A DNA stretch of 64,000 nt. Source: an uncultured Candidatus Rokubacteria bacterium (GTDB taxonomy: Bacteria > Methylomirabilota > Methylomirabilia > Rokubacteriales > DASRDR01). Location of the stretch: positions 128,001 through 192,000 of the forward strand of contig CAWGVS010000002.1 in the NCBI GenBank assembly GCA_963826115.1. Reading direction: 5' to 3'. The translations under genes were made by a program, and so were the position numbers. A model generated the notes under the pieces. That model was not told the DNA's origin. It saw nothing but the letters and a program-made list of their open reading frames with translations, and did no database searches. Shown here piece after piece: positions 55,116-64,000 of this stretch (position 1 is its first letter; every line of letters starts with the position of its first letter).

Positions 55116-57860
55116 TCAGAGGAGCTCGAATGCCTCCAGCGTCAGCCCGAGCGGCACCGGCCGGTCCCGGCCGACGACGGCCCGGACGGCCCGCGGCCCC
55201 CAGTCCTCGATCGCGTCGCCCGTGCGCGCTCCGCGCACGCCGATCAGGACGTGGGACCACCCCGGCATCCCCCTGAGATCCGCGCGACCGCCGACGGCGC
55301 CGAGCGCGCGCACGGCGCGCTCGCTGAGCTGGGACTCCGCCCCGTCCGTCGCGACCGCGACGACGATCGTGCCCTCCGGCCAGCCGCCCACGTACGCCGC
55401 GAGCCGCTCCGACTCCTCGCCGGGCTCGCGCGTGTCGAAGCGGCGCGTGCCCAGGACACGGCCGTCGGTCGGCGCCAGGGCCGCGACCCAGTAGCCGCGG
55501 CAGCGGACGCCCGCCAGCTCGCGCCCGTTGACCCGGACGGAGACGAGGCCGTGGGGGCCGCCCGCGCTCCGCACGTCCAGATCGACGGGGGAGGACTGCC
55601 CCGTCCTGCCGATCCGGTAGGGCGCGCTTCGCGTCACGGCCGACGGGATGTCGTAGACGTGCTGGAAGACCAGCTCGTTCCGATCGGCGTCGGGAAACGG
55701 CGGCGGCAGGACGGCGCGGCCGGACACGGGCCCGGTCGCGGTCTCGAGGAGCCGGCCGTTGAAGCGCACCTCGACCCGCCGGTGGACCTCCGGATCCTCC
55801 CCCGCGAGCCGGAGCGCGTACGCGGCCTGCGGGTGGCGCCGAACGAAGTCCGACGAGAACTGGCGGCGGATCACGGCGCCCGTCTCCGGCGTCGGGGTCA
55901 CCCGGTAGACCTCATCGTCGCGCTCGAACGTCCGGACGAGCCCCAGGCCCGGCACGCCACCCTCGCGCAGGAGCTCCCACATGGGCCGCCACGTCCGGCC
56001 GAGCCCCAGGCCGCGGTGGACGACGACGTACCGGACGGGATAGATCGCCCGGATGGCCGTGCTGAGCCGGTCGGGATCCCGCGCCTCGGCGGCCCACACC
56101 AGCTCCTCCCAGTGCGGGAGCGCGAAGCCGCCGTGCCCGTTCACGACGCGCTTGCCGTGGTCCACCGCCCAGAGCATCGCCCACGCGTCCGCGCCCTTGT
56201 CGTGGATCGGCAGCTGCAGGATGGCGAGGTCCCCGGGCTCGTCGCGGAGCCAGTCGTAGACCGCGGGCCTCGACGGGGACCGGTGCCAGGGCAGCGGCAC
56301 CACGGCCAGCTCCACCAGCACGAGGGCCAGCAGGGCGCCGGGCGCCAGCCGGGCCCACGGTCCGGAGAAGCGCGCCCCGATGGCGCGGACCCCCAGGGCC
56401 GCGAGCAGCGCGAGCGGGAGCGCGAAGACGAGGCTCCAGCGCCCCGGGGCCCGAAACGCGCTGCCGCCCGGCACGTGGAGGTACACCCAACGAAAGAGCG
56501 TCGCGCCCCACGCCTCGCCGAACAGGATGATGGTCGGCGCCAGACAGAGAAGGTAGGCGAGGAGCGCGAGGAACAGGAGCACGAGCATCCACTCTCGCGG
56601 TCCGAGGGCACCGCGGGCGCGGCGGCGCCCCTCGAGCCCGAGCCACACCAGGGCCAGCAACGGGAGCGCGTTCACCGCCAGGGTCAGGTCGCGAACCGCC
56701 AGCGCCCCGAGAACGCCCCCCCGCGGGGCCCGACCGAGCGCGAGGGCCAGCCCGATCGCGCCGAGGACGGCCGCCGCGAGACCGAGGAGGCCCCACCGCG
56801 CGCGACGCACCCATCCCGGGAGCGCCGGCGGGCCCGACGCCCGCGCGTGGAGGACGACGGCCGCCCCCGCCAGGAGGAGCGCCGCGAACCCCGGAAACAG
56901 GCCGCCCTCCGGCCGCCCGAGCGACATGAGGCGGTGCCGGTAGAAGCGGCTGAACTCCGCCGGATCCAGGATGGACAGGAGCTCCATCCCGAACACGTCG
57001 CCCTCCGCGAGGGTTCGCTGGAACCCGAGCTCCCGGTGCACGCTCACGTACGGCCACAGGAAGGGCGCGAGGGCGAGCCCGAGCCCGGCACCGGCCACCC
57101 CGAGGCGCCCGGCGAGGCTCCACGTCAGCCGATCCGGTCGGAGCACGAAGAGCCCGAGGAGGAGGCCGCCCACGAGGATCGCGAGCGCGTAGCCGTTGTA
57201 GAGCGACGACAGCATCTGGGCCCACCCGGCGACCGCCGCCAGCCACAGGTGGCCCGGCCGTCCGTCGATGACGAAGCGATACAGCGCCCAGACGATGAGC
57301 GGGAACAGCACCGCCTGCTGGTAGGTGAACTGCCCGAGGTGGTCCATGCGGTTCGGATAGAACGCGAAGATCGCGCCCGCCACGAGCCCCGGGATCACCC
57401 CGCCGGTCACCGCGCGCGTCAGCACGTACGTCAGGACGCCGCTCGCCGTCAGACCCGCGAGGAGGAGGAGGTTCACGGCCAGGAGCGGCTCGATCCCCGT
57501 CGCGAGGAGCGGCGCGGCCAGGAGTCCCGTGAAGAACGCCGACTGCTGGTACGCGACGCCGTTCGCGTAGGGGTAGTAGAAGGGCACCTGGAACAGGCGC
57601 GTGGGGTCGCGGAACGTCTGCCGCGCGTTCCACGCCACCATGCTGGTCTCGGTCAGGTAGTCGCCGTGGCCGCCCCGCAGGGTGAGCCGGGGGTGGAGGG
57701 CCAGCGGGTACGTGTAGACCACCGTGGCGGCGCCGAAGAAGGCCGTGATCAGGAGCGCGTGCGTCAGGCGCCGGAGCCGCGGCCGCGCGCCGCTCACGGG
57801 CCGCGCGGTCGCGACCGACGCGGTCCCGCCGGCCGGGCGGTCAGGCGAGGTCGCGGTCAA
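55116..57860 (-). CDS. Polytopic GT-C-like membrane protein with C-terminal ILEI/PANDER-like domain
   Basis: More than 12 TM segments, FYYPY, EGGLFPG, FRAPGR and VVNGHGGF. C-terminus RRFDT...PEGTIVVAVATDGA...WSHVLIGVRG. The start may be GTG 57797. Confidence 0.7.
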   Translation of the reverse strand: MTATSPDRPAGGTASVATARPVSGARPRLRRLTHALLITAFFGAATVVYTYPLALHPRLTLRGGHGDYLTETSMVAWNARQTFRDPTRLFQVPFYYPYANGVAYQQSAFFTGLLAAPLLATGIEPLLAVNLLLLAGLTASGVLTYVLTRAVTGGVIPGLVAGAIFAFYPNRMDHLGQFTYQQAVLFPLIVWALYRFVIDGRPGHLWLAAVAGWAQMLSSLYNGYALAILVGGLLLGLFVLRPDRLTWSLAGRLGVAGAGLGLALAPFLWPYVSVHRELGFQRTLAEGDVFGMELLSILDPAEFSRFYRHRLMSLGRPEGGLFPGFAALLLAGAAVVLHARASGPPALPGWVRRARWGLLGLAAAVLGAIGLALALGRAPRGGVLGALAVRDLTLAVNALPLLALVWLGLEGRRRARGALGPREWMLVLLFLALLAYLLCLAPTIILFGEAWGATLFRWVYLHVPGGSAFRAPGRWSLVFALPLALLAALGVRAIGARFSGPWARLAPGALLALVLVELAVVPLPWHRSPSRPAVYDWLRDEPGDLAILQLPIHDKGADAWAMLWAVDHGKRVVNGHGGFALPHWEELVWAAEARDPDRLSTAIRAIYPVRYVVVHRGLGLGRTWRPMWELLREGGVPGLGLVRTFERDDEVYRVTPTPETGAVIRRQFSSDFVRRHPQAAYALRLAGEDPEVHRRVEVRFNGRLLETATGPVSGRAVLPPPFPDADRNELVFQHVYDIPSAVTRSAPYRIGRTGQSSPVDLDVRSAGGPHGLVSVRVNGRELAGVRCRGYWVAALAPTDGRVLGTRRFDTREPGEESERLAAYVGGWPEGTIVVAVATDGAESQLSERAVRALGAVGGRADLRGMPGWSHVLIGVRGARTGDAIEDWGPRAVRAVVGRDRPVPLGLTLEAFELL

Positions 57861-59097
57861 GGCGGAGGAGCAGCTCCAGGAGCACCCGGGCGCCGGTCAC
57901 CAGGTGGTCGACGTCGGCCCACTCCTCCGGGCAGTGGCTGCGGCCGTCGCGGCAAGGGATGAAGAGGAGCCCGATCGGGCAGAGCCGCGCCATGTGATTC
58001 GCGTCGTGGCTGGCGCCGCTCGTGAGACGCCGGTGGGGGATCCCGAGCGCCGATGCCGCGGCGTCCGCGGCGGCCACCATCTCGGGCGCCACGGTGAGGG
58101 GCGGGTCCCGCATGAGGACGGTCCACTCGACGGCGACGGCGCGCCGCGCGGCGATCTCCCGTGTCCCGGTCTCGAAGCGCGCCAGCGTCTCGGCGATCGC
58201 GGGTGGGTCGATCCCACGGAAGTCCACGAGGAGATCCGCCTCCCCGGGGACGATGTTGATCATGTTCGGGCGCGCCTCGACGACGCCGACCGTCCCCACC
58301 ATCCCGCGGCCGGCCTCGCGCGCGACCTGCTCCACGAGCAGGACGATCTCCGCGGCCGCCGCGACCGCGTCCCGCCGATCCGCCATCGGCGTCCCGCCCG
58401 CGTGGTCCTGGCGGCCCCGCACCGCGACCCGGTAGCGGCTCGGCGCCGCGATGGCGGTCACCACGCCGAGCGGCAGACCCGCCCGGTCGAGCGAGACCGC
58501 CTGCTCGATGTGGAGCTCGAGGTACCGGAGGACGTCGCCGGACGACCGCCGCGCGCCGTCGAGGGCCGCGCCACGCCCGCCCACCGAGTCGACCGCGTCG
58601 GCGAGGCTCTGTCCCACGCGGTCGCGGAGCCCGACCGCGGTGGCGGCGTCCAGCTTGCCGCTCATCGCGCGGCTGCCGATCGTCGAGAGGCCGAAGTCCG
58701 ACGGCTCCTCGCAGGTGAAGTTGATCACCTCGAACGGGTGCGCGAGCCGGTGACCGGCCGCCTCGAGGCAGCGAGCCACCTCGAGGCCCGCCAGGACGCC
58801 CGCGATCCCGTCGAAGCGCCCGCCCGCCTCGACGGTGTCGAGATGCGAGCCGATCACGAGCGCGGGCCCCGGACCGCCGCGCCGCCCGATCTGGTTGCCG
58901 GCGGCGTCGACCGACGGGGTGAGCCCCGCCTCCGCCATCCGCCGGGTGAGCCACTGGCGCGCCGCGCGATCCTCGTCGGAGAAGGCCCGGCGCGTGTACG
59001 GCCGGTCCGGCCGCGTGAAGGCCTCGAGCGCGCGGAGGTCGGCCGCGAGCCGCTCCGGCGACGGGCGCGGCAGGCCCGCAGAGCGGGCGTCAGGCAC
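57841..59097 (-). CDS. M20 Zn-dependent hydrolase (N-carbamoyl-amino-acid/allantoate amidohydrolase family)
   Basis: DAAGN, GSHLDTV-x2-GGRFDG, CEE, ELHIEQ, HAGGTPM, SGASHDA and SHCPEE. Confidence 0.92.
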   Translation of the reverse strand: MPDARSAGLPRPSPERLAADLRALEAFTRPDRPYTRRAFSDEDRAARQWLTRRMAEAGLTPSVDAAGNQIGRRGGPGPALVIGSHLDTVEAGGRFDGIAGVLAGLEVARCLEAAGHRLAHPFEVINFTCEEPSDFGLSTIGSRAMSGKLDAATAVGLRDRVGQSLADAVDSVGGRGAALDGARRSSGDVLRYLELHIEQAVSLDRAGLPLGVVTAIAAPSRYRVAVRGRQDHAGGTPMADRRDAVAAAAEIVLLVEQVAREAGRGMVGTVGVVEARPNMINIVPGEADLLVDFRGIDPPAIAETLARFETGTREIAARRAVAVEWTVLMRDPPLTVAPEMVAAADAAASALGIPHRRLTSGASHDANHMARLCPIGLLFIPCRDGRSHCPEEWADVDHLVTGARVLLELLLRLDRDLA

Positions 59098-59130
59098 GCG
59101 CCGCGCTCCGCTGCCGGGCCGCGGCGGCGC

Positions 59131-60018
59131 TCATCGCGGCAGGACCGCCTCGGCGAGCGTCCCGGCGATCGCGGTCAAGGCCCGCGCCGCCGCCGCGTCG
59201 GGGTGCTCGAGCACGAACGGCCGGCCGCGGTCCGCGGCCGCGGCGAGCCGCGGGTCGAACGGCACGCGCCCGAGGAAGGCCACGCCGTGCTGGGCAGCCG
59301 TCGCTTCCCCGCCGGGACCGTCGAAGAGCGGCCCGACGGCGCCGCAGGTCGGACAGGCGTAGCCCGCCATGTTCTCGATCAGCCCGAGCAGACGCGCCCC
59401 CCGCTCGCGCGCGAGGGTCATCGCGCGGCGCACGACGAGGTGCGAGACGGCCGAGGGAATCGTGACGACCACGGCGCCGGTCAGGCCGGGCAGGAGGTCG
59501 AGGAGCGTCGGCAATCGCTCGGCGCCCGGCGGCAGGTCGAGGAGCAGCACGTCGAGGGCGCCCCATGCCGTGTCCGCGAGGAACTCCCGGAGCGCGGTCC
59601 CCTCCATGGTCCCGCGCCAGGTGTGCGCCTCGGCCTGGGTCGGCGCGTCCCAGACCACGGGCGTGTCGTCGCCGGGCAGGAGGAGGTCCATCGACAGGAC
59701 CCGGATCCCGTCGGCCGACACGGCGGGGCGAACGCCGTCGGGCGCGACCTCCAGCGTCTGGCCGCGCACGCCGAGCATCTTGCCCATCGACGGGCCGTTC
59801 AGGTCCGCGTCGAGCACGCCGACGGCGAGCCCGCGCGCGGCGAGGGCGCCCGCGAGGTTCGCGGTCACCGAGCTCTTCCCCACCCCGCCCTTCCCCGAAA
59901 CGACCGCGACGCTCGCGCGGACCGGCGCCATCCGGGCGGCGAGCCGCGTCTGCTGCGCGACCACCTGCTCCACGATGTTCGAGCCGCCGTCGCCCGCAAT
60001 GTCGCGATAGCCCTTCAT
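59131..60018 (-). CDS. Mrp/NBP35 (ApbC-like) ATP-binding Fe-S carrier
   Basis: SGKGGVGKS, DADLNGPS, WRG, DLPPG, VTIP and IENMAGYACPTC; ATGA coupling to the upstream gene. Confidence 0.9.
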   Translation of the reverse strand: MKGYRDIAGDGGSNIVEQVVAQQTRLAARMAPVRASVAVVSGKGGVGKSSVTANLAGALAARGLAVGVLDADLNGPSMGKMLGVRGQTLEVAPDGVRPAVSADGIRVLSMDLLLPGDDTPVVWDAPTQAEAHTWRGTMEGTALREFLADTAWGALDVLLLDLPPGAERLPTLLDLLPGLTGAVVVTIPSAVSHLVVRRAMTLARERGARLLGLIENMAGYACPTCGAVGPLFDGPGGEATAAQHGVAFLGRVPFDPRLAAAADRGRPFVLEHPDAAAARALTAIAGTLAEAVLPR

Positions 60019-61034
60019 GCGCCGCTGCCCTCGTCGCTGGTGTCGAGCGGGGCCGACGCGGGGTCCCGCAGGTGCGCGCGGAAGCGCCGCATGAGGTCCT
60101 GCCCGAGGAAGTCCCCGGGGGCGCCATGCCGCTCGGCCTCGAAATAGTGCCGGATCCGGTCGAGCCGCTCCTGCGCCTCCGGGTTCAGACTGACGGTGCG
60201 GATCTCGGCCTTCGCGGCGTCGAACGCGTCGAAGGTGAGCTCGGTGAAGCCGAGCTCGCGGATGCGCTTGACGGCCTTCATCATCGCCTGGTTCCGGAAC
60301 CGCGTGAGGAGCGGCGAGTCGATCTCCGCCACGCCCATCCGCCGGGCGCGCCGCTCCGCCGCCTTGCGGATGCCCTCGCGCACGAACTCCGGAGCCGTCT
60401 GGAGCCGCGCCCAGGCCTCGGGGCGCCACCGGACCGGCGTGTCGGGCGCCGCCTGCCAGAGCCGGTCGACGACCTCCGCGGTGACCCGCTCGTACCCGGC
60501 GCGCCGGGCCTCGACCTCGACGTCTCGCTGGAAGAGGCGGAGCACGAAGTCCGCCATCATGGCCGGGGCCTTGCCGAGTCGCGCGACGAGCCGGGCCTCC
60601 GCGTCGGGCGTCCAGGGGAGCGGCGCCGCGGCCGCCTCGGTCTCGGCTTCCGCCTCGGCCTCCCGGATCAGATCATGTGTCACCGCGACCGCTCCGCGCT
60701 CGGCGGCCAGCTCCTCGCAGATCCGGCGCGTCATGGGCCGCATGAAGGAGGGCGCCGCCTCGAGCACCGCCAGCGCCTCCGGCGTCCACGGCGGGGCGGA
60801 CTGCGGGACCTGGTAGGCGCCGCTCTCGGCGAGGCCCATCATCTCGCTCTTGTAGCGGGTCATGAGCTCGGGCGTGATCACCTCCACGCCCTCGGCGCGC
60901 GCCCGCCGCTCGGCCAGCCGCCGGACCATGCCCCGGAGGAAGAACGGCGCGCGCGCGACCCGCGCCTCGGCCTCCGGCGTCCAGCGCACCTCGCCGGACG
61001 GGGGCGGGGCCGGCGCGCCGGATGCGCCGCTCAC
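60015..61034 (-). CDS. Protein of four tandem PCP_red-like helical domains
   Basis: WTPEAEARVARAPFFLR, WTPEALAVLEAAPSFMR, WTPDAEARL and WRPEAWARLQTAPEFVR, each followed by A-x3-G-x3-[IV][TD]; GTGA coupling. Confidence 0.82.
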   Translation of the reverse strand: MSGASGAPAPPPSGEVRWTPEAEARVARAPFFLRGMVRRLAERRARAEGVEVITPELMTRYKSEMMGLAESGAYQVPQSAPPWTPEALAVLEAAPSFMRPMTRRICEELAAERGAVAVTHDLIREAEAEAETEAAAAPLPWTPDAEARLVARLGKAPAMMADFVLRLFQRDVEVEARRAGYERVTAEVVDRLWQAAPDTPVRWRPEAWARLQTAPEFVREGIRKAAERRARRMGVAEIDSPLLTRFRNQAMMKAVKRIRELGFTELTFDAFDAAKAEIRTVSLNPEAQERLDRIRHYFEAERHGAPGDFLGQDLMRRFRAHLRDPASAPLDTSDEGSGA

Positions 61035-61456
61035 GCCTCGCGGCTCCACGCCGCCCGCGCGAGGATCACGGCCGTGAAGATCGTGAGGAGGCAGAAGGCC
61101 CACGCGCCCACGCGCATCGGCACGTCGAGCCCGAGGACGGGGATGGTCTCCGCGCGAGGCGCCCGGGCGATCCGCGCCACCTCGATCGCGCGGATGGCGA
61201 CCAGCAGGGTCAGGATGCGGGCGAAGTCCCGGCGGGAGAGGAGCCAGCGATCGAGCCACCCGCGCTCCTTCACAAGGAGCCACGGAATCACGATCACGAA
61301 CAGCGCGCCGACGACGAACCACGCCGCGCCCCCACGCTCCATTCCCCGTGGGCCGAGGCCGCTCTGCGCGAGCGCGAGCCCCCCGAGCCAGTAGACGACG
61401 CCGTAGGCGACGTACGTCCATGCGGCCTGGCGGTAGAGCGCGTCCCGCGGGGCCAT
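61031..61456 (-). CDS. Small 4-TM membrane protein
   Basis: Four hydrophobic segments; embedded in the operon with a 7-bp gap upstream and a 4-bp overlap downstream. Confidence 0.8.
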   Translation of the reverse strand: MAPRDALYRQAAWTYVAYGVVYWLGGLALAQSGLGPRGMERGGAAWFVVGALFVIVIPWLLVKERGWLDRWLLSRRDFARILTLLVAIRAIEVARIARAPRAETIPVLGLDVPMRVGAWAFCLLTIFTAVILARAAWSREA

Positions 61457-61463
61457 CCCGCGC

Positions 61464-62840
61464 TCAGCCGTCCCCGGCCGTGGGCGGGCGGCCGGCCGCG
61501 GGCGTGAACGGCCGCCCCGGCGAGATGCCCCAGCGGCTCCGCACCTCGGCGAGGATCGCCGGGGTCACGGTCGTCTGCCCCTGGCCGCGCGCGTAGGCCT
61601 CGACCGCCTGGACGACCATGGCGCGGGCGAACGCCGGGATCGCGTCGAGCCGCGCCCGGGCCGCCGGCTCCCACGCGAGCGCGAACCGCGCCTCGAGCCC
61701 GAACGTCTGCTCGACCCCGAGCCGGATCAGCTCGCCGCCGTGGGCGCCGGGCTGGTAGCCGCAAGCCGGGTCCTCGGCGAGATAGTCGCCGTAGGTCGCG
61801 TAGGCGCGGCAGCGGCAGCCGCCGCAGAGCTCGCGGAACTCGCAGGCGCCGCAGCGCCCGCCGAGCGGCCGGTGACGGAGCTCCGTGAAGACTTCCGCCC
61901 GTTCCCAGAGCTCGGCGAAGCCGGTCTCGCGCAGGTTGCCGGCGGACACCGGCATGTACGGGCACGGCGTCACGTCGCCCGTCGGCGTGATGCGGCAGTA
62001 GTACTTCCCGGCCGGGCACGAGCCGTGCGCGTAGTTCGCGAGCAGCGGCGAGCTCGGGTCCAGCTCGTAGAGCACCCGCCGGAAGTGGGGCGCGCACTTC
62101 GCGCGGATCAGGAGGCCGCCGGCCCGGCCGACGGGCACGCTCCAGGGGTCCTCGCGCCGCTCGAGCACGGAGTCGGACGCGGAGCTCTCTGGCGCGCGGC
62201 CCGCCCCCTGAGTCCGGGCCAGATAGGTCAGGATCTCCTCGTACTGCGCGGGTGTGATGTCGGTGAGCCCTTCGCCGCGGCCTGTCCGGACGAGGAAGAA
62301 GAAGTTGAGGACCCGCGCCCCGAGCTCCCGCGCGAGGTCGATCATCGCGGGGATCTCGCCGACGTTCCAGTCGGTGACGCTCATGTGGAGCGAGAAGTCG
62401 ATGCGCTCCGCCCGGAGGGCCTCGGTCGCCCGGATGGCGCCCTTCCAGGCGCCGGGCAGATGCCGGAACTCGTCATGACGCGCGGCATCGACCGAGTCGA
62501 GGGAGAGCGACGCCCCCTGGACGCCGTGGGTCTTCATGAGGCGCGCCTGCTTCGCGCGGAGGAGGACGCCGTTGGTCCCGAGGACGACCGTGAAGCCGTG
62601 CTCCCGCCCCTCGGCCGCCAGCTCGAAGATGTCCGGACGCAGCAGCGGCTCGCCGCCGGTGAGGATCAGGAAGGTCCCGGGGTTCACGCGGGCCATGTCC
62701 GCCATCACCCGGCGGCACTCCTCCGTCGAGAGCTCGCCCGCCGCCGAGGCGCTCGGGGCCCCGCTGATGTAGCAGTGGGCGCAGAAGAGGTTGCAGCGCT
62801 GGGTGAGGTTCCAGGAGACCGCGTACGCCTTGTACGTCAC
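61464..62840 (-). CDS. Radical SAM/SPASM enzyme (AhbC/AhbD/NirJ-like) with C-terminal PCP_red-like domain
   Basis: WNLTQRCNLFCAHCY (Cx3Cx2C), TGGEP, KCAPHF, SPASM CPAG...GDVTPC...CGAC-x5-CGGCRCRA...DPAC, then WEPAARARLDAIPAFAR. Confidence 0.9.
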   Translation of the reverse strand: MTYKAYAVSWNLTQRCNLFCAHCYISGAPSASAAGELSTEECRRVMADMARVNPGTFLILTGGEPLLRPDIFELAAEGREHGFTVVLGTNGVLLRAKQARLMKTHGVQGASLSLDSVDAARHDEFRHLPGAWKGAIRATEALRAERIDFSLHMSVTDWNVGEIPAMIDLARELGARVLNFFFLVRTGRGEGLTDITPAQYEEILTYLARTQGAGRAPESSASDSVLERREDPWSVPVGRAGGLLIRAKCAPHFRRVLYELDPSSPLLANYAHGSCPAGKYYCRITPTGDVTPCPYMPVSAGNLRETGFAELWERAEVFTELRHRPLGGRCGACEFRELCGGCRCRAYATYGDYLAEDPACGYQPGAHGGELIRLGVEQTFGLEARFALAWEPAARARLDAIPAFARAMVVQAVEAYARGQGQTTVTPAILAEVRSRWGISPGRPFTPAAGRPPTAGDG

Positions 62841-62926
62841 TGGATGACGGCCGGTTGCGCCTCGACCGGGGCTTTTCCCGCGAGGACGCTCAGCGAGCCG
62901 GCGATGAACGCGCGCCTGGCCAGCAT
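62837..62926 (-). CDS. Putative 29-aa peptide resembling an isolated Tat signal
   Basis: MLARRAFIAGSLSVLAGKAPVEAQPAVIQ; its stop overlaps the radical SAM GTG (GTGA). No clear RBS. Confidence 0.3.
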   Translation of the reverse strand: MLARRAFIAGSLSVLAGKAPVEAQPAVIQ

Positions 62927-63000
62927 CGGAGGGCGCCCGCTCTCGCCAGCCGCCACCGTGGCAACGCCCCGCGCGGCCTCGACCGACGTGACCTCGCCGC

Positions 63001-63999
63001 CTAGCCCTGCGGCTTGTTCTTGATGTAGCCGGCGATGACCTCGTTCATCGTGGTGCGGGCGTGGCCGATCCCCTCCTCGCAGACGTCGAGATCGATGAAT
63101 CCGACCTGCTTCTCCCCCGCCACCTTCTCGATCGCCTCGCGGGTCATGTCGCGCATGAAGCCGGCCGGCACGCGGTTCAGACGGGCGACGGCGTCCTCGG
63201 TCCACGTGAAGGCGCCGTTCGGGTCGGTCACGTCCTTGAGGGTCGCCCCGGCGAACTTCGTGTTGGCAATGAGCGTGTCCCAGCCGTCGCCGAGCTTGTC
63301 GCGCCCGACCGTCTCCTCGATGAGCGGGAAGGCGACCTCCTTCGTGATGACGGGGAGCTTCCGCGTCCGCGCGTACTTCTCGATCCGCGCCTTCGCGCGC
63401 CGGCGGAGGTAGGCGTCGGTGACCTGGCGGAGCCCCTCCCGCGCGTCGTTGGCCCAGCGGACCGTCACGCCGGGCATGACCTCCTCCTCGGCGATCCCGC
63501 CCTCCAGGGTGGCGATCTGCTCCACCGCCTTCCGGTCGACGAGGGTGAACGCCTCCGGGCCGCCCGAGCAGACCGGGCACTTCACGACGGGGTTCGGGCC
63601 CTTCACGACGTACCCGCAGACCGAGCAGATCGCCGTCACGGCGGCGTCCTCGGCCCGGAGCTTCGCGACCGCCAGGTCCTCGGCGAGGATCTGCATCTTC
63701 TCGGCCATGCGGCCGGGCATGAAGATCGCCATCGCCTCGTCGATGACCTTCGAGGTGATGACGGTGTGCCCCTGCTCGATCGCGTAGCGGAGGAGCGCCG
63801 TGCGCGCCACCCCGGCCACCTGCTCGGGCACGCGCTTCATCCGGTCCCGGGCCTCGTCCGTCCAGGCGATGATCTCCTCGGCCTTGACGTCGAGCGGCGG
63901 GTAGAACTTGCCGCCCACCAGCAGCACGTTGCACGGGGCCAGGCGGAGCAGGTTCTCCGTGTTCGAGCCGAGGTCCGCCTCCCGCTCGTCCGAGTGGAC
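63001..63999 (-). CDS. Universal stress protein domain + rubredoxin-like knuckle + three PCP_red-like domains; 5' end outside the window
   Basis: The frame is open to the window edge. LGSNTENLLRLAPCNVLLV (USP C-terminus), WTDEARDRMKRVP, CSVCGY-x10-CPVC, WANDAREGL and WTEDAVARLNRVPAGFMR. Confidence 0.85.
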   Translation of the reverse strand, partial: VHSDEREADLGSNTENLLRLAPCNVLLVGGKFYPPLDVKAEEIIAWTDEARDRMKRVPEQVAGVARTALLRYAIEQGHTVITSKVIDEAMAIFMPGRMAEKMQILAEDLAVAKLRAEDAAVTAICSVCGYVVKGPNPVVKCPVCSGGPEAFTLVDRKAVEQIATLEGGIAEEEVMPGVTVRWANDAREGLRQVTDAYLRRRAKARIEKYARTRKLPVITKEVAFPLIEETVGRDKLGDGWDTLIANTKFAGATLKDVTDPNGAFTWTEDAVARLNRVPAGFMRDMTREAIEKVAGEKQVGFIDLDVCEEGIGHARTTMNEVIAGYIKNKPQG

Positions 64000-64000
64000 G

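What the first reader, a model, noticed from the sequence alone, without database searches (positions are those of the whole stretch)
59131..64000. Operon built around one repeated module: eight PCP_red-like domains across USP-rubredoxin, radical SAM and repeat proteins, plus an Mrp ATPase
Seen: a ~50-aa helical unit (W-x2-[ED]A-x3-L-x3-P-x-F-x-R...A-x3-G-x3-[IV]T) occurs 3 times in the USP/rubredoxin fusion, once at the radical SAM C-terminus and 4 times in the 60015-61034 protein. The downstream genes are tightly coupled by GTGA/ATGA overlaps and include a 4-TM protein and an Mrp/NBP35 ATPase. Known: this unit resembles the C-terminal PCP_red domain of the dark-operative protochlorophyllide reductase B subunit; Mrp proteins carry Fe-S clusters; AhbC/AhbD/NirJ enzymes modify tetrapyrroles; USP domains often bind adenine nucleotides. 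Inference: the module is a docking tag that assembles a nucleotide- or redox-gated Fe-S or cofactor maturation complex, or the repeat proteins are substrates of the radical SAM enzyme. I know of no characterised pathway with this architecture, and no chlorophyll genes are present in the window.
Basis: partly seen in the sequence, partly recalled or inferred. Interest (0 to 1): 0.88.

Follow-up and report, generated by a model that had tools for sequence, protein, structure and literature searches.

The report
Oxidase-linked radical SAM PCP_red module
Next to a respiratory oxidase gene cluster lies a conserved set of genes for a heme-synthase-like radical SAM enzyme and helper proteins that all share one small domain otherwise known only from a chlorophyll enzyme; nobody has studied it, and it probably supplies or tailors heme for that oxidase.

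Summary
Pfam finds eight PCP_red domains in three adjacent minus-strand proteins: 3 in a USPx2-rubredoxin fusion, 1 at the C-terminus of a radical SAM/SPASM enzyme and 4 in a repeat protein. A 4-TM protein and an Mrp/NBP35 ATPase are coupled to them by GTGA/ATGA overlaps. A ninth PCP_red (Zn-ribbon-PCP_red) lies elsewhere in the genome and belongs to the same system in other phyla.

The set is conserved in Methylomirabilota (90 of 151 sampled genomes) and in a few Nitrospirota, and single members carry names from other phyla. It is gained and lost as a unit together with one heme-copper oxidase paralog and a dedicated Mrp paralog.

The radical SAM enzyme forms a clade of its own, sister to AhbD/NirJ2 heme synthases. 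It is not an ordinary AhbD. No carrier has AhbA/B, 3 of 50 have true HemN, and 8 relatives without the system still have an A-type oxidase.

Best reading (about 0.5): an accessory module acting on an iron tetrapyrrole for a terminal oxidase, with PCP_red as the shared interaction module and Mrp as Fe-S or electron supplier. The chemistry is inferred. An Mrp-dimer/Zn-ribbon-PCP_red fold gave only weak support. No literature on this system was found.

The parts
63004..64000 (-). C-terminal 332 residues (302-633) of a 633-aa fusion: USP-USP-PCP_red-rubredoxin-like-PCP_red-PCP_red. The gene runs on to window-equivalent position 64901, beyond the window.
   Evidence: Pfam. Full length was read from the contig. 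Highly conserved across phyla, with 4 invariant Cys.
63733..63864 (-). PCP_red unit 1 of the USP fusion
   Evidence: 39.3 bits
63547..63627 (-). Rubredoxin-like CxxC...CxxC knuckle of the USP fusion (residues 426-452)
   Evidence: PF21349, 28.5-29.6 bits against cut-off 26.5. C426, C429, C442 and C445 are invariant in 26 sequences.
63334..63456 (-). PCP_red unit 2 of the USP fusion (weak)
   Evidence: 26.6 bits, below the cut-off, E 4.5e-5. Aligns with the others.
63073..63204 (-). PCP_red unit 3 of the USP fusion
   Evidence: 39.3 bits
61467..62840 (-). Radical SAM/SPASM enzyme, AhbD/NirJ2-like, 458 aa, with C-terminal PCP_red
   Evidence: PF04055 79.2, PF13186 40.7, PF08369 44.5 bits. TIGR04545 298.6 and TIGR04055 292.4 bits, both below the cut-off of 500. 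CX3CX2C and 10 further invariant Cys. Own clade.
61539..61673 (-). PCP_red domain of the radical SAM enzyme
   Evidence: 49.3 bits
61034..61456 (-). 141-aa four-helix membrane protein of no known family, without His. It starts 7 nt after the radical SAM stop, and its stop overlaps the next start (GTGA).
   Evidence: No Pfam or NCBIfam match. AF2 pLDDT 77.7, four helices plus a hairpin. No fold match. Atlas neighbours only from the same phylum. Found downstream of the enzyme in 48 of 74 loci.
60018..61034 (-). 339-aa protein of four PCP_red units plus a conserved ~80-residue C-terminal tail. Its stop overlaps the Mrp start (ATGA).
   Evidence: PF08369 142.3 bits, 4 stretches. Units at 60852-60983, 60657-60788, 60462-60614 (23.5 bits) and 60300-60428. 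Model and fold match. Orthologs in Nitrospirota at 41-45% identity.
59134..60018 (-). Dedicated Mrp/NBP35-type P-loop ATPase, 295 aa, with GKGGVGKS and CPTC motifs and no N-terminal extra domain
   Evidence: PF10609 243.2 bits. MrpORP 238.7 and ApbC 167.3 bits, both below their cut-offs. The genome's second, housekeeping-type copy is only 42% identical. Close orthologs occur only in genomes that carry the system.

Best explanation
WHAT IT IS. This is a real, conserved module with these members:
- a USPx2-PCP_red-rubredoxin-PCP_redx2 protein;
- an AhbD/NirJ2-like radical SAM/SPASM enzyme ending in PCP_red;
- a small membrane protein;
- PCP_red-only proteins (here 4xPCP_red in the operon and a Zn-ribbon-PCP_red elsewhere in the genome);
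- a dedicated Mrp/NBP35 ATPase.

In this phylum it is an accessory of one particular A-type heme-copper oxidase cluster that carries its own heme O and heme A synthase genes.

HOW IT MOST LIKELY WORKS.
- The radical SAM enzyme performs an oxygen-independent side-chain reaction on an iron tetrapyrrole. The simplest candidate is coproheme to heme b, as AhbD does (about 0.3). Another tailoring or hand-off step on heme for the oxidase is about 0.35.
- The dedicated Mrp loads or repairs the enzyme's three [4Fe-4S] clusters, or feeds it electrons.
- The rubredoxin-bearing tandem-USP protein couples this to the cell's nucleotide or redox state.
- PCP_red is the shared interaction module that holds the soluble parts together.

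SHOWN: domain make-up, conservation, co-inheritance, family placement.
INFERRED: substrate, chemistry, every protein contact, and the roles of USP and rubredoxin.
For: (1) The enzyme's relatives are tetrapyrrole enzymes.
- Its best curated families are the two heme b synthase models: TIGR04545 at 298.6 and TIGR04055 at 292.4 bits. That is more than 100 bits above NirJ (194.1) and AhbC (170.4).
- In a search of 1.84 billion representatives I scanned 67 of the 150 best hits. 24 are radical SAM+PCP_red (1-3 copies). 18 are radical SAM fused to siroheme-decarboxylase domains (PF17805).
- The relatives without PCP_red score up to 498 (AhbD) and 533 (NirJ2) bits.

(2) The genes form a unit.
- All 120 listed close homologs carry PCP_red.
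- The USP fusion lies directly upstream in 57 of 65 loci. Mrp lies downstream in 43 of 65. The 4-TM gene lies downstream in 48 of 74.
- All 50 carrier genomes hold 2-13 PCP_red matches. In most of them the best-scoring copy lies in a short frame like that of the Zn-ribbon-PCP_red protein; six such genes were read.
- Where the enzyme gene has moved (Methylomirabilis-type loci), USP fusion, (4-TM), Mrp and Zn-ribbon-PCP_red stay together behind cyoE-COX3-DUF420-DUF983.

(3) Co-loss.
- Of 14 high-quality same-phylum genomes without the enzyme, 8 (91-100% complete; 3 genera) have no PCP_red at all.
- Those 8 have only a 44-48% identical paralog of the window's CoxA. Six of six other carriers have a 72-78% ortholog.
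- 0 of 4 system-less genomes tested have the dedicated Mrp (best 39-40%). 4 of 5 carriers do (59-69%).

(4) Heme context.
- coxB, coxA, ctaA-like, cyoE, COX3x2, DUF420 and DUF983 lie directly upstream on the same strand. cox genes are upstream in 34 of 50 loci with enough sequence.
- In other lineages the neighbours are a cytochrome bd-like subunit I and cytochromes c, or DUF420 plus a heme-oxygenase-like protein, or a CopD/UPF0093-like membrane protein.

(5) The genome fits a coproporphyrin route.
- It has hemE, an adjacent hemY/CgoX-type gene and hemH. It has no AhbA/B, no HemF, no true HemN and no recognised ChdC.
- Reviews state that AhbD occurs in coproporphyrin-pathway organisms lacking other Ahb enzymes (PMC13564367 and PMC7242693, passages read).

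(6) Complex fold: Mrp dimer + Zn-ribbon-PCP_red.
- Score 0.51 (runs 0.53, 0.49, 0.51); best of 3 controls 0.01; verdict 'weak support'.
- The mark was reached by 116 of 157 solved complexes and 2 of 215 mismatched pairs. At 0.60 or under it was reached by only 18 of those 157 and by both mismatches that passed.
- Runs agree in at least 54% of contacts; partner pLDDT at least 61; own alignments were used.

(7) Contigs of four RNA libraries (3 studies), 90-99% alike, lie on all genes. Single contigs bridge the radical SAM/4-TM junction and the repeat protein/Mrp junction. This is weak evidence: DNA can be present in such libraries and most contigs are from relatives.
Against: - The enzyme misses every curated cut-off. 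It sits in a clade apart from AhbD/NirJ2/TIGR04053 (24 against 42 rows, SH-aLRT 97). AhbD chemistry is therefore extrapolated.
- It fills no clear pathway hole. 17 of 50 carriers have a full-length Chlor_dismutase-family protein (149-202 bits). 27 have only a divergent C-terminal-half match (25-54 bits). The strong and weak forms rarely occur together (2 of the 17 strong-form genomes also hold a weak match), so the weak form may be this lineage's ChdC.
- 3 of 50 carriers (a Nitrospiria group) have a true HemN (582-600 bits) and no ChdC. They should not make coproheme, yet they keep the whole system.
- Eight system-less relatives have an A-type oxidase (8 of 8), no HemN (0 of 8) and only the divergent Cld-like protein (8 of 8). 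Heme b and an aa3-type oxidase can therefore be made without the system.
- The oxidase link is not universal. 10 of 50 carriers (all of them genomes of loci titled Nitrospirota, Nitrospiria or Manganitrophaceae) have no COX1 at E<=1e-30.
- In one Manganitrophus-type genome, Mrp and Zn-ribbon-PCP_red sit beside SufU and SufS. This points to Fe-S assembly rather than heme.
- In DPOR the part of BchB that contacts the pigment in trans is helix 398-420 (PMC12022308, passages). The PCP_red stretch is residues 468-520. PCP_red is therefore not a demonstrated tetrapyrrole binder.
- It has no conserved His or Cys.
- The co-loss rests on 3 genera, and kin are not independent.
Confidence: 0.5

Rival explanations
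1. Ordinary AhbD. The radical SAM enzyme is simply the oxygen-independent coproheme decarboxylase of a coproporphyrin-dependent pathway. It works alone, and the neighbours are unrelated genes that happen to share a domain.
For: - The best curated matches are the two AhbD models.
- The genome has hemE, hemY and hemH but no HemN, HemF, AhbA/B or recognised ChdC.
- AhbD is known in coproporphyrin-pathway organisms without other Ahb genes (PMC13564367, passages).
- In Methylomirabilis-type genomes the enzyme gene stands alone.
Against: - It forms a separate clade defined by the PCP_red fusion.
- The partner genes are retained in the same genomes even when unlinked.
- All PCP_red proteins are lost together, along with the dedicated Mrp.
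- It is kept in 3 genomes that have HemN and lack ChdC.
Confidence: 0.08
2. Non-catalytic heme chaperone. As HemW derives from HemN, this clade derives from AhbD. It binds heme and hands it to a membrane oxidase, with the PCP_red proteins and the small membrane protein as the delivery chain.
For: - The system is co-inherited with one oxidase paralog and sits behind DUF420, DUF983 and the heme O/A synthase genes.
- It is dispensable for heme synthesis in relatives.
- It is kept in HemN-bearing genomes.
- A membrane protein is always near: the 4-TM protein or a CopD/UPF0093-like one.
- The HemW precedent is recalled, and seen only in search listings.
Against: - All cluster-binding cysteines, including both auxiliary sets, are invariant, and a dedicated Fe-S carrier is kept. 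This suggests catalysis.
- Ten carriers lack COX1.
Confidence: 0.12
3. Fe-S assembly or repair stress module unrelated to tetrapyrroles. Mrp, rubredoxin-like and Zn-ribbon proteins and USP domains act in cluster delivery under stress, and the radical SAM enzyme is merely their client.
For: - SufU-SufS-Mrp-Zn-ribbon-PCP_red are adjacent in a Manganitrophus-type genome.
- Mrp is the most constant neighbour of PCP_red-only proteins.
- The Mrp/Zn-ribbon-PCP_red fold gave weak support: score 0.51 against best control 0.01, with the counts given under the best explanation.
- USP domains are stress-associated (recalled).
Against: - The housekeeping Mrp paralog is present everywhere.
- The system tracks one oxidase cluster.
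- The enzyme's family is tetrapyrrole-specific.
Confidence: 0.1
4. Protein-modifying maturase. The SPASM enzyme modifies the PCP_red repeats themselves (or a small peptide), with its own PCP_red as the recognition element.
For: - SPASM enzymes often modify peptides. The curated matches include PqqE and several peptide maturases, at lower scores.
- The best solved relative by sequence is PqqE.
Against: - The repeat-only protein is absent from most loci (found in 19 of 68).
- PCP_red has no conserved Cys, Thr or Lys target pattern.
- A 29-codon ORF before the enzyme is not conserved at the syntenic place.
- The nearest relatives are fused to siroheme decarboxylase, not to peptide-recognition domains.
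Confidence: 0.05

Closest known systems
[quoted passage not shown]
   Same: - Full-length alignment to both models (positions 2-339 of TIGR04545, in two pieces).
- CX3CX2C motif plus cysteines for two auxiliary clusters.
- It is the closest family in a search of 1.84 billion proteins.
   Different: - Scores of 298.6 and 292.4 against a cut-off of 500.
- A separate clade.
- A ~35-residue insert and a C-terminal PCP_red.
- No AhbA/B in any of the 51 genomes.
- A set of co-inherited partner proteins that known AhbD enzymes do not have.
C-terminal PCP_red domain of DPOR subunit BchB/ChlB (PF08369; 2kru, 3aek_B residues 468-520, 2ynm_D) and the stand-alone Asr4154 (2l09)
   Same: The same small fold (one strand plus three helices) and the same sequence motif.
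   Different: - Here it occurs outside any nitrogenase-like protein, in up to 13 copies per genome.
- It is fused to USP, rubredoxin-like, Zn-ribbon and radical SAM modules, in non-phototrophs.
- Its role in DPOR itself is not established by anything I read.
Mrp/NBP35/ApbC Fe-S carrier ATPases (PF10609), including MrpORP of sulfate reducers
   Same: P-loop, CxxC motif and full-length Pfam match.
   Different: - Below the curated cut-offs of MrpORP (238.7 against 450) and ApbC (167.3 against 348).
- It lacks extra N- or C-terminal domains.
- It is a second, dedicated paralog, only 42% identical to the genome's other copy, and is present only with the system.
HemW (HemN-derived radical SAM heme chaperone)
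   Same: It gives a precedent for a heme-pathway radical SAM protein serving respiratory enzymes. It is kept alongside a complete heme pathway.
   Different: HemW belongs to a different radical SAM subfamily with no sequence relation tested here. This is an analogy from recall; it was seen only in search listings.

Membership tests
AhbD / NirJ2 heme b synthase (TIGR04545 / TIGR04055) | Radical SAM CX3CX2C motif and a SPASM domain with cysteines for auxiliary [4Fe-4S] clusters | tested here: met
   PF04055 and PF13186 match. C16, C20 and C23, plus C249, C275, C282, C293, C330, C333, C339, C342, C344 and C360, are invariant in 28 sequences.
AhbD / NirJ2 heme b synthase (TIGR04545 / TIGR04055) | Score at or above the curated equivalog cut-off (500 bits) | tested here: not met
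   298.6 and 292.4 bits. No paralog in the genome reaches it either.
AhbD / NirJ2 heme b synthase (TIGR04545 / TIGR04055) | Falls inside the clade of AhbD/NirJ2 sequences | tested here: not met
   In a 66-row tree the PCP_red-fused enzymes form a 24-row group, split from the 42 AhbD/NirJ2/TIGR04053-like rows by a branch with SH-aLRT 97. The tree is unrooted and came from a quick search.
AhbD / NirJ2 heme b synthase (TIGR04545 / TIGR04055) | Pathway context that supplies coproheme (AhbA/B/C, or a coproporphyrin-dependent route) | tested here: inconclusive
   AhbA/B are absent in 0 of 1 and 0 of 50 genomes. hemE, hemY and hemH are present in the own genome. However, 3 of 50 carriers have HemN and no ChdC.
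AhbD / NirJ2 heme b synthase (TIGR04545 / TIGR04055) | Converts Fe-coproporphyrin III to heme b | not testable with these tools
   This needs an enzyme assay.
PCP_red (PF08369) | Pfam match above the gathering score, and the fold of the solved domain | tested here: met
   All three proteins are above 32.5 bits. Six of eight units are individually above it. One unit superposes on 2kru at 1.3 A.
Mrp/NBP35/ApbC (PF10609) | Deviant Walker A (GKGGVGKS) and a CxxC cluster-bridging motif | tested here: met
   Both motifs are read in the translation. PF10609 scores 243.2 bits. S41-S49 are invariant. That these motifs define the family is recalled.
MrpORP / ApbC equivalogs (NF041136, NF008669) | Score at or above the curated cut-off | tested here: not met
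   238.7 against 450, and 167.3 against 348.
Universal stress protein (PF00582), ATP-binding type | Pfam match; G-x2-G-x9-G-[ST] nucleotide motif | tested here: met
   Two stretches, 125.1 bits. G130-x2-G133-x9-G143-S144 is invariant in the first domain. The motif definition is recalled. Nucleotide binding itself was not tested.
Peptide-modifying radical SAM/SPASM maturases (RiPP type) | A conserved precursor peptide gene beside the enzyme | tested here: not met
   The only small ORF, 29 codons directly upstream, has no syntenic counterpart in 80 loci.

The most novel reading that the evidence does not exclude
PCP_red is a docking module for Fe-S ATPases of the Mrp/NifH class. In DPOR it ends the BchB arm. 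Here it would let a dedicated Mrp dimer, helped by rubredoxin-like and Zn-ribbon proteins and gated by the ATP-binding USP domains, deliver low-potential electrons (or clusters) to a radical SAM enzyme at the cost of ATP. That would be a nitrogenase-like two-component logic applied to radical SAM chemistry. It would suit organisms that live on high-potential donors or in oxic soil, where low-potential reductant is scarce.
Probability: 0.08. Interest if true: 0.9.

Novelty: new variant of a known kind. Interest (0 to 1): 0.62.

Why it matters
- It gives the first genomic context for the PCP_red domain outside chlorophyll synthesis.
- It defines an unstudied sister clade of the heme b synthases AhbD/NirJ2. 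The clade is present in about 60% of sampled Methylomirabilota genomes and in some Nitrospirota, and members carry names from Planctomycetota, Nitrospinota and other phyla.
- If the enzyme makes or tailors heme, it adds a branch to bacterial heme metabolism and shows how a specific terminal oxidase gets its cofactor under low oxygen.
- If Mrp drives it, that would be a new way to activate radical SAM enzymes.
- The strict co-inheritance with one oxidase paralog makes the question testable by expression, pull-down and heme analysis.

Tried and rejected
- A 29-codon ORF with a twin-arginine-like start lies between the USP fusion and the radical SAM gene. It is not conserved at the syntenic place in 80 loci and the gap there varies from about 0 to 1.2 kb. 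Rejected as a gene.
- Rfam scan of 57500-64000 gave only a chance snoRNA match below threshold.
- The promoter/terminator scan found nothing on the minus strand and is uninformative at 75% G+C.
- The fold search of the 4-TM model gave no match at E<=0.001, only generic helix bundles. The Atlas gave only same-phylum hypothetical proteins.
- I searched for longer proteins sharing the Zn-ribbon protein's PCP_red. Of 221 candidates none scored, so this gave no census of architectures.
- The Atlas for the repeat protein gave its own family plus a lead to DUF2621 proteins of Bacillota (22% with PCP_red). Not followed.
- Literature: 'PCP_red'/'PF08369' (9 papers, none relevant); 'IPR013580', 'Asr4154', '2KRU', '2L09', 'DUF2621' (none of the 15 listed of 290 papers relevant); AhbD with Nitrospira/Methylomirabilis/Acidobacteria (the query was too loose, and none of the 15 listed papers holds 'AhbD'). 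The DPOR reviews and preprint read say nothing about the PCP_red domain.
- My recollection that PCP_red caps the pigment in DPOR was not borne out. The trans-acting element described is helix 398-420.
- The complex fold first planned (radical SAM enzyme + C-terminal half of the USP fusion) was never run because the queue was full. That pair is untested.
- M20 amidase downstream (57841-59097): it is conserved only in the closest relatives, so it is not counted as part of the system.
- Depth differences and uncovered parts in the RNA-library contigs are not interpreted.

Full report
ANATOMY

All genes of the finding lie on the minus strand of a ~75% G+C contig. The window is positions 128001-192000 of contig C2 of a 6.24-Mb, 99%-complete genome. 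I read the next 15 kb of the contig. In the direction of transcription the order is:
- coxB, coxA, a ctaA-like gene, cyoE (UbiA family), two COX3 genes, DUF420, DUF983 and a secreted CarboxypepD_reg protein;
- 38 nt later, a 633-aa protein with two USP domains, PCP_red, a rubredoxin-like knuckle and two more PCP_red. Only its last 332 residues are in the window;
- 160 nt later, a 458-aa radical SAM/SPASM enzyme with a C-terminal PCP_red;
- 7 nt later, a 141-aa four-helix membrane protein;
- by GTGA overlap, a 339-aa protein of four PCP_red units;
- by ATGA overlap, a 295-aa Mrp/NBP35 ATPase;
- 33 nt later, an M20 amidase. It is kept only in the closest relatives, and I do not count it.

- Pfam gives 3 + 1 + 4 PCP_red stretches.
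- A six-frame scan of the genome gives nine matches. Eight are here (six above the 32.5-bit cut-off, two at 26.6 and 23.5 bits). The ninth lies in a 178-aa Zn-ribbon-PCP_red protein on another contig.
- The family rings in 1 of 14 control genomes.
- The repeat protein matches solved PCP_red domains by sequence (2kru, 3aek_B residues 468-520, 2l09). One unit of a moderate model (pLDDT 63; units 75-87) also matches by fold: 2kru at rmsd 1.3 A, TM 0.75. Foldseek E-values are weak (0.15-0.39) because the domain is short.

WHO HAS IT

Names of the closest homologs place the organism among Rokubacteria-type Methylomirabilota.
- All 120 listed close homologs of the enzyme carry PCP_red.
- A scan of one genome per species confirmed 580 relatives. 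The best 80 loci are titled mostly Methylomirabilota. The rest are Nitrospirota (Nitrospiria, Manganitrophaceae) and single contigs titled Entotheonella, Binatia, Acidoferrum and Proteobacteria.
- More distant members at 42-49% identity carry names from Planctomycetota and Nitrospinota.
- In a sample of the window's phylum, 90 of 151 genomes have an ortholog at E<=1e-120. Among high-quality genomes it is 62 of 98. These counts include G000 and three genomes flagged as unpublished (G079, G097, G151, all positive); without those three it is 87 of 148.
- In a sample of the phylum of the Manganitrophus-type genome, only the centre itself matched (1 of 151). The system is therefore patchy there.

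THE GENES ARE A UNIT

From a tblastn map of the 80 loci:

| Feature relative to the enzyme gene | Loci with it | Loci with enough flank |
|---|---|---|
| USP fusion directly upstream | 57 | 65 |
| 4-TM gene downstream | 48 | 74 |
| Mrp downstream | 43 | 65 |
| 4xPCP_red-type gene downstream | 19 | 68 |
| cox genes upstream | 34 | 50 |

Arrangements in other lineages:
- Manganitrophaceae-type loci: an ~890-aa USP fusion (five PCP_red, two rubredoxin-like), the enzyme, a 4xPCP_red protein, and a CopD/UPF0093-like membrane protein.
- One Nitrospiria group: 4xPCP_red, Mrp, Zn-ribbon-2xPCP_red, a heme-oxygenase-like protein and DUF420 on the opposite strand nearby.
- One Methylomirabilota locus: Mrp and Zn-ribbon-PCP_red followed by a cytochrome bd-like subunit I and cytochromes c.
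- Methylomirabilis-type genomes: the enzyme gene stands alone. In one locus read, the USP fusion, 4-TM gene, a frame in Mrp's position, Zn-ribbon-PCP_red and a CopD-like gene follow cyoE-COX3-COX3-DUF420-DUF983; in a second, USP fusion, Mrp and Zn-ribbon-PCP_red follow DUF420 and DUF983.

All 50 carrier genomes tested hold 2-13 PCP_red matches. In most of them the best-scoring copy lies in a short frame like that of the Zn-ribbon protein.

CO-LOSS

Of 14 high-quality same-phylum genomes without an enzyme match, 6 still have PCP_red. These are probably missed or split genes, and one of them, G108, is flagged unpublished. The other 8 have none (91-100% complete; genera g11, g15, g17). The table compares those 8 with carriers.

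| Test | 8 system-less genomes | Carriers |
|---|---|---|
| A-type COX1 | 8 of 8 | 40 of 50 |
| Best match to the window's CoxA | 44-48% identity | 72-78% ortholog plus a 45-49% paralog in 5 of 6 (the sixth: a 78% ortholog alone) |
| Best match to the window's Mrp | 39-40%, housekeeping type, 4 of 4 tested | 59-69% dedicated copy in 4 of 5 |

The own genome has both Mrp copies (100% and 42%). In this phylum the PCP_red proteins, the dedicated Mrp and one oxidase cluster therefore travel together. Three genera are few independent events.

WHAT THE ENZYME IS

- Its best curated families are the archaeal and bacterial heme b synthase models, at 298.6 and 292.4 bits against cut-offs of 500. NirJ (194.1), AhbC (170.4) and peptide maturases score lower.
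- No solved AhbD exists by sequence. PqqE is the best solved relative.
- I scanned 67 of the 150 best of 40,574 hits in a 50%-clustered library. I left out fragments and rows I did not need. 24 are radical SAM+PCP_red with one to three copies. 18 are fused to siroheme decarboxylase domains.
- 53 relatives were scanned against NCBIfam. They give AhbD up to 498 bits and NirJ2 up to 533 bits.
- A tree of 66 rows used the query and 65 full-length hits that I had labelled; the other 85 hits were left out. It puts 22 PCP_red-bearing rows and two rows in which Pfam found no PCP_red on one side of a branch with SH-aLRT 97. The 42 AhbD/NirJ2/TIGR04053-like rows are on the other side.

The enzyme is therefore a sister clade, not an ordinary AhbD. 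Its kinship is with enzymes that cut side chains of iron tetrapyrroles.

HEME PATHWAY LOGIC CUTS BOTH WAYS

For a heme b synthase role:
- The own genome has hemE, an adjacent hemY-type gene and hemH. It has no AhbA/B, no HemF and no true HemN. Its only Chlor_dismutase-family protein scores 26.7 bits against a HemQ cut-off of 235.
- Reviews say AhbD serves as the oxygen-independent coproheme decarboxylase in some coproporphyrin-pathway organisms (passages of PMC13564367 and PMC7242693).

Against it:
- Among 50 carriers, 17 have a full-length Chlor_dismutase-family protein, 27 have only the divergent form and 6 have none. Only 2 of the 17 hold a weak match as well, which suggests the divergent form is an orthologous ChdC.
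- AhbA/B are absent in 0 of 50.
- Three carriers have true HemN and no ChdC.
- The eight system-less relatives make do with the divergent form alone.

The system is therefore not the sole route to heme b. At most it is a conditional route (for example a low-oxygen one), or it does something else to heme.

WHAT PCP_red DOES IS OPEN

- I found no paper on it outside DPOR.
- In DPOR the element described as touching the pigment in trans is BchB helix 398-420 (PMC12022308, passages). The PCP_red stretch (468-520) follows it. The domain may therefore anchor the swapped arm rather than bind pigment.
- It has no conserved His or Cys.
- The one complex fold I could run, the Mrp paralog as a dimer with the Zn-ribbon-PCP_red protein, scored 0.51 (runs 0.53, 0.49, 0.51) against a best control of 0.01. 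The verdict was weak support. The mark was reached by 116 of 157 solved complexes and 2 of 215 mismatched pairs. At 0.60 or under it was reached by only 18 of those 157 and by both mismatches that passed. Runs agree in at least 54% of contacts, partner pLDDT is at least 61, and my own alignments were used. No interface was given.
- Together with the ATGA coupling and the constant Mrp/PCP_red adjacency, this makes an Mrp-PCP_red-protein complex plausible, not shown.

OTHER PARTS

- The USP fusion is strikingly conserved across phyla (47-52% identity to the Nitrospirota members in the alignment). It has an invariant G-x2-G-x9-G-S in the first USP domain and four invariant knuckle cysteines. That the motif marks ATP-binding USPs is recalled.
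- The 4-TM protein is phylum-specific, has no His and has no fold relative.
- Contigs from four RNA libraries of three studies, 90-99% alike, lie on every gene. Two bridge gene junctions. This is only a weak hint of expression.

VERDICT

The closest known kind is AhbD-type heme synthesis, and the system is a new variant of it with an accessory protein set built on PCP_red. In this phylum it is tied to one terminal oxidase cluster. The substrate and all protein contacts remain to be shown.

Noticed in passing
L003 5941-6705 and 13882-15000 (minus strand; window-equivalent 64941-65705 and 72882-74000, beyond the window): Two secreted proteins flank the cox cluster. Each has a C-terminal CarboxypepD_reg domain and an N-terminal part carrying a Cys-x-x-His-x-x-Met-like motif. 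They may be copper proteins serving the oxidase. Relatives occur at the same places in most Rokubacteria-type loci.
   Followed up: partly
G000:C5:905000-905308 (L093 1480-2109, minus strand): A ~210-aa divergent Chlor_dismutase-family protein. It scores 42.5 bits to Pfam over the C-terminal half only, and 26.7 bits to HemQ against a cut-off of 235. It rarely occurs together with full-length forms across 50 + 14 genomes and may be a lineage-specific coproheme decarboxylase.
   Followed up: partly
window 57841-59097 (minus strand): An M20 amidase just below the ErtE (N-carbamyl-L-glutamate amidohydrolase) cut-off (478.8 against 520). It is above an allantoate amidohydrolase subfamily cut-off (401.7 against 399). 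It follows Mrp only in the closest relatives.
   Followed up: partly
L115 3212-6648 (Manganitrophus-type genome G034): A SufU-like gene, a split cysteine desulfurase-like gene, the Mrp paralog, Zn-ribbon-2xPCP_red and a heme-oxygenase-like/CADD-like gene lie in a row. Only the SufU-like gene and the CADD-like gene were scanned; the others were named from their first residues.
   Followed up: partly
L044 2286-8296 and L066 11380-14307 (Nitrospiria): Beside the system lie a CopD/UPF0093(HemJ)-like 149-aa membrane protein, a 133-aa membrane protein and an FGE-sulfatase-domain protein. On the other strand is a DUF420 protein next to a Haem_oxygenas_2 protein. These genomes have true HemN and no ChdC.
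   Followed up: partly
Proteins P0175, P0176, P0193, P0194, P0196, P0205 and others: Many AhbD/NirJ2-like radical SAM enzymes are fused to one or two siroheme decarboxylase (NirDL HTH + AsnC_trans_reg2) modules. This parallels the PCP_red fusion in the sister clade.
   Followed up: no
L058 4146-6806 (minus strand): In the complete Manganitrophus-type genome a hybrid histidine kinase with an ethylene-receptor-like N-terminal domain (ETR1_N) lies about 0.7 kb upstream of the USP fusion, on the opposite strand. Beyond it is an ORF that starts like a response regulator (not scanned).
   Followed up: no
window 60018-60260 (C-terminal ~80 residues of the 4xPCP_red protein): A helical tail after the fourth repeat is conserved from Rokubacteria-type genomes to Nitrospirota (invariant or near-invariant R257, G262, F268, F271, N284, Y297 and others). 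It has low model confidence and no family.
   Followed up: no
Atlas cluster list: A Bacillota cluster named DUF2621 has PCP_red on 22% of its members. This may be a link of the domain to Gram-positive bacteria.
   Followed up: no
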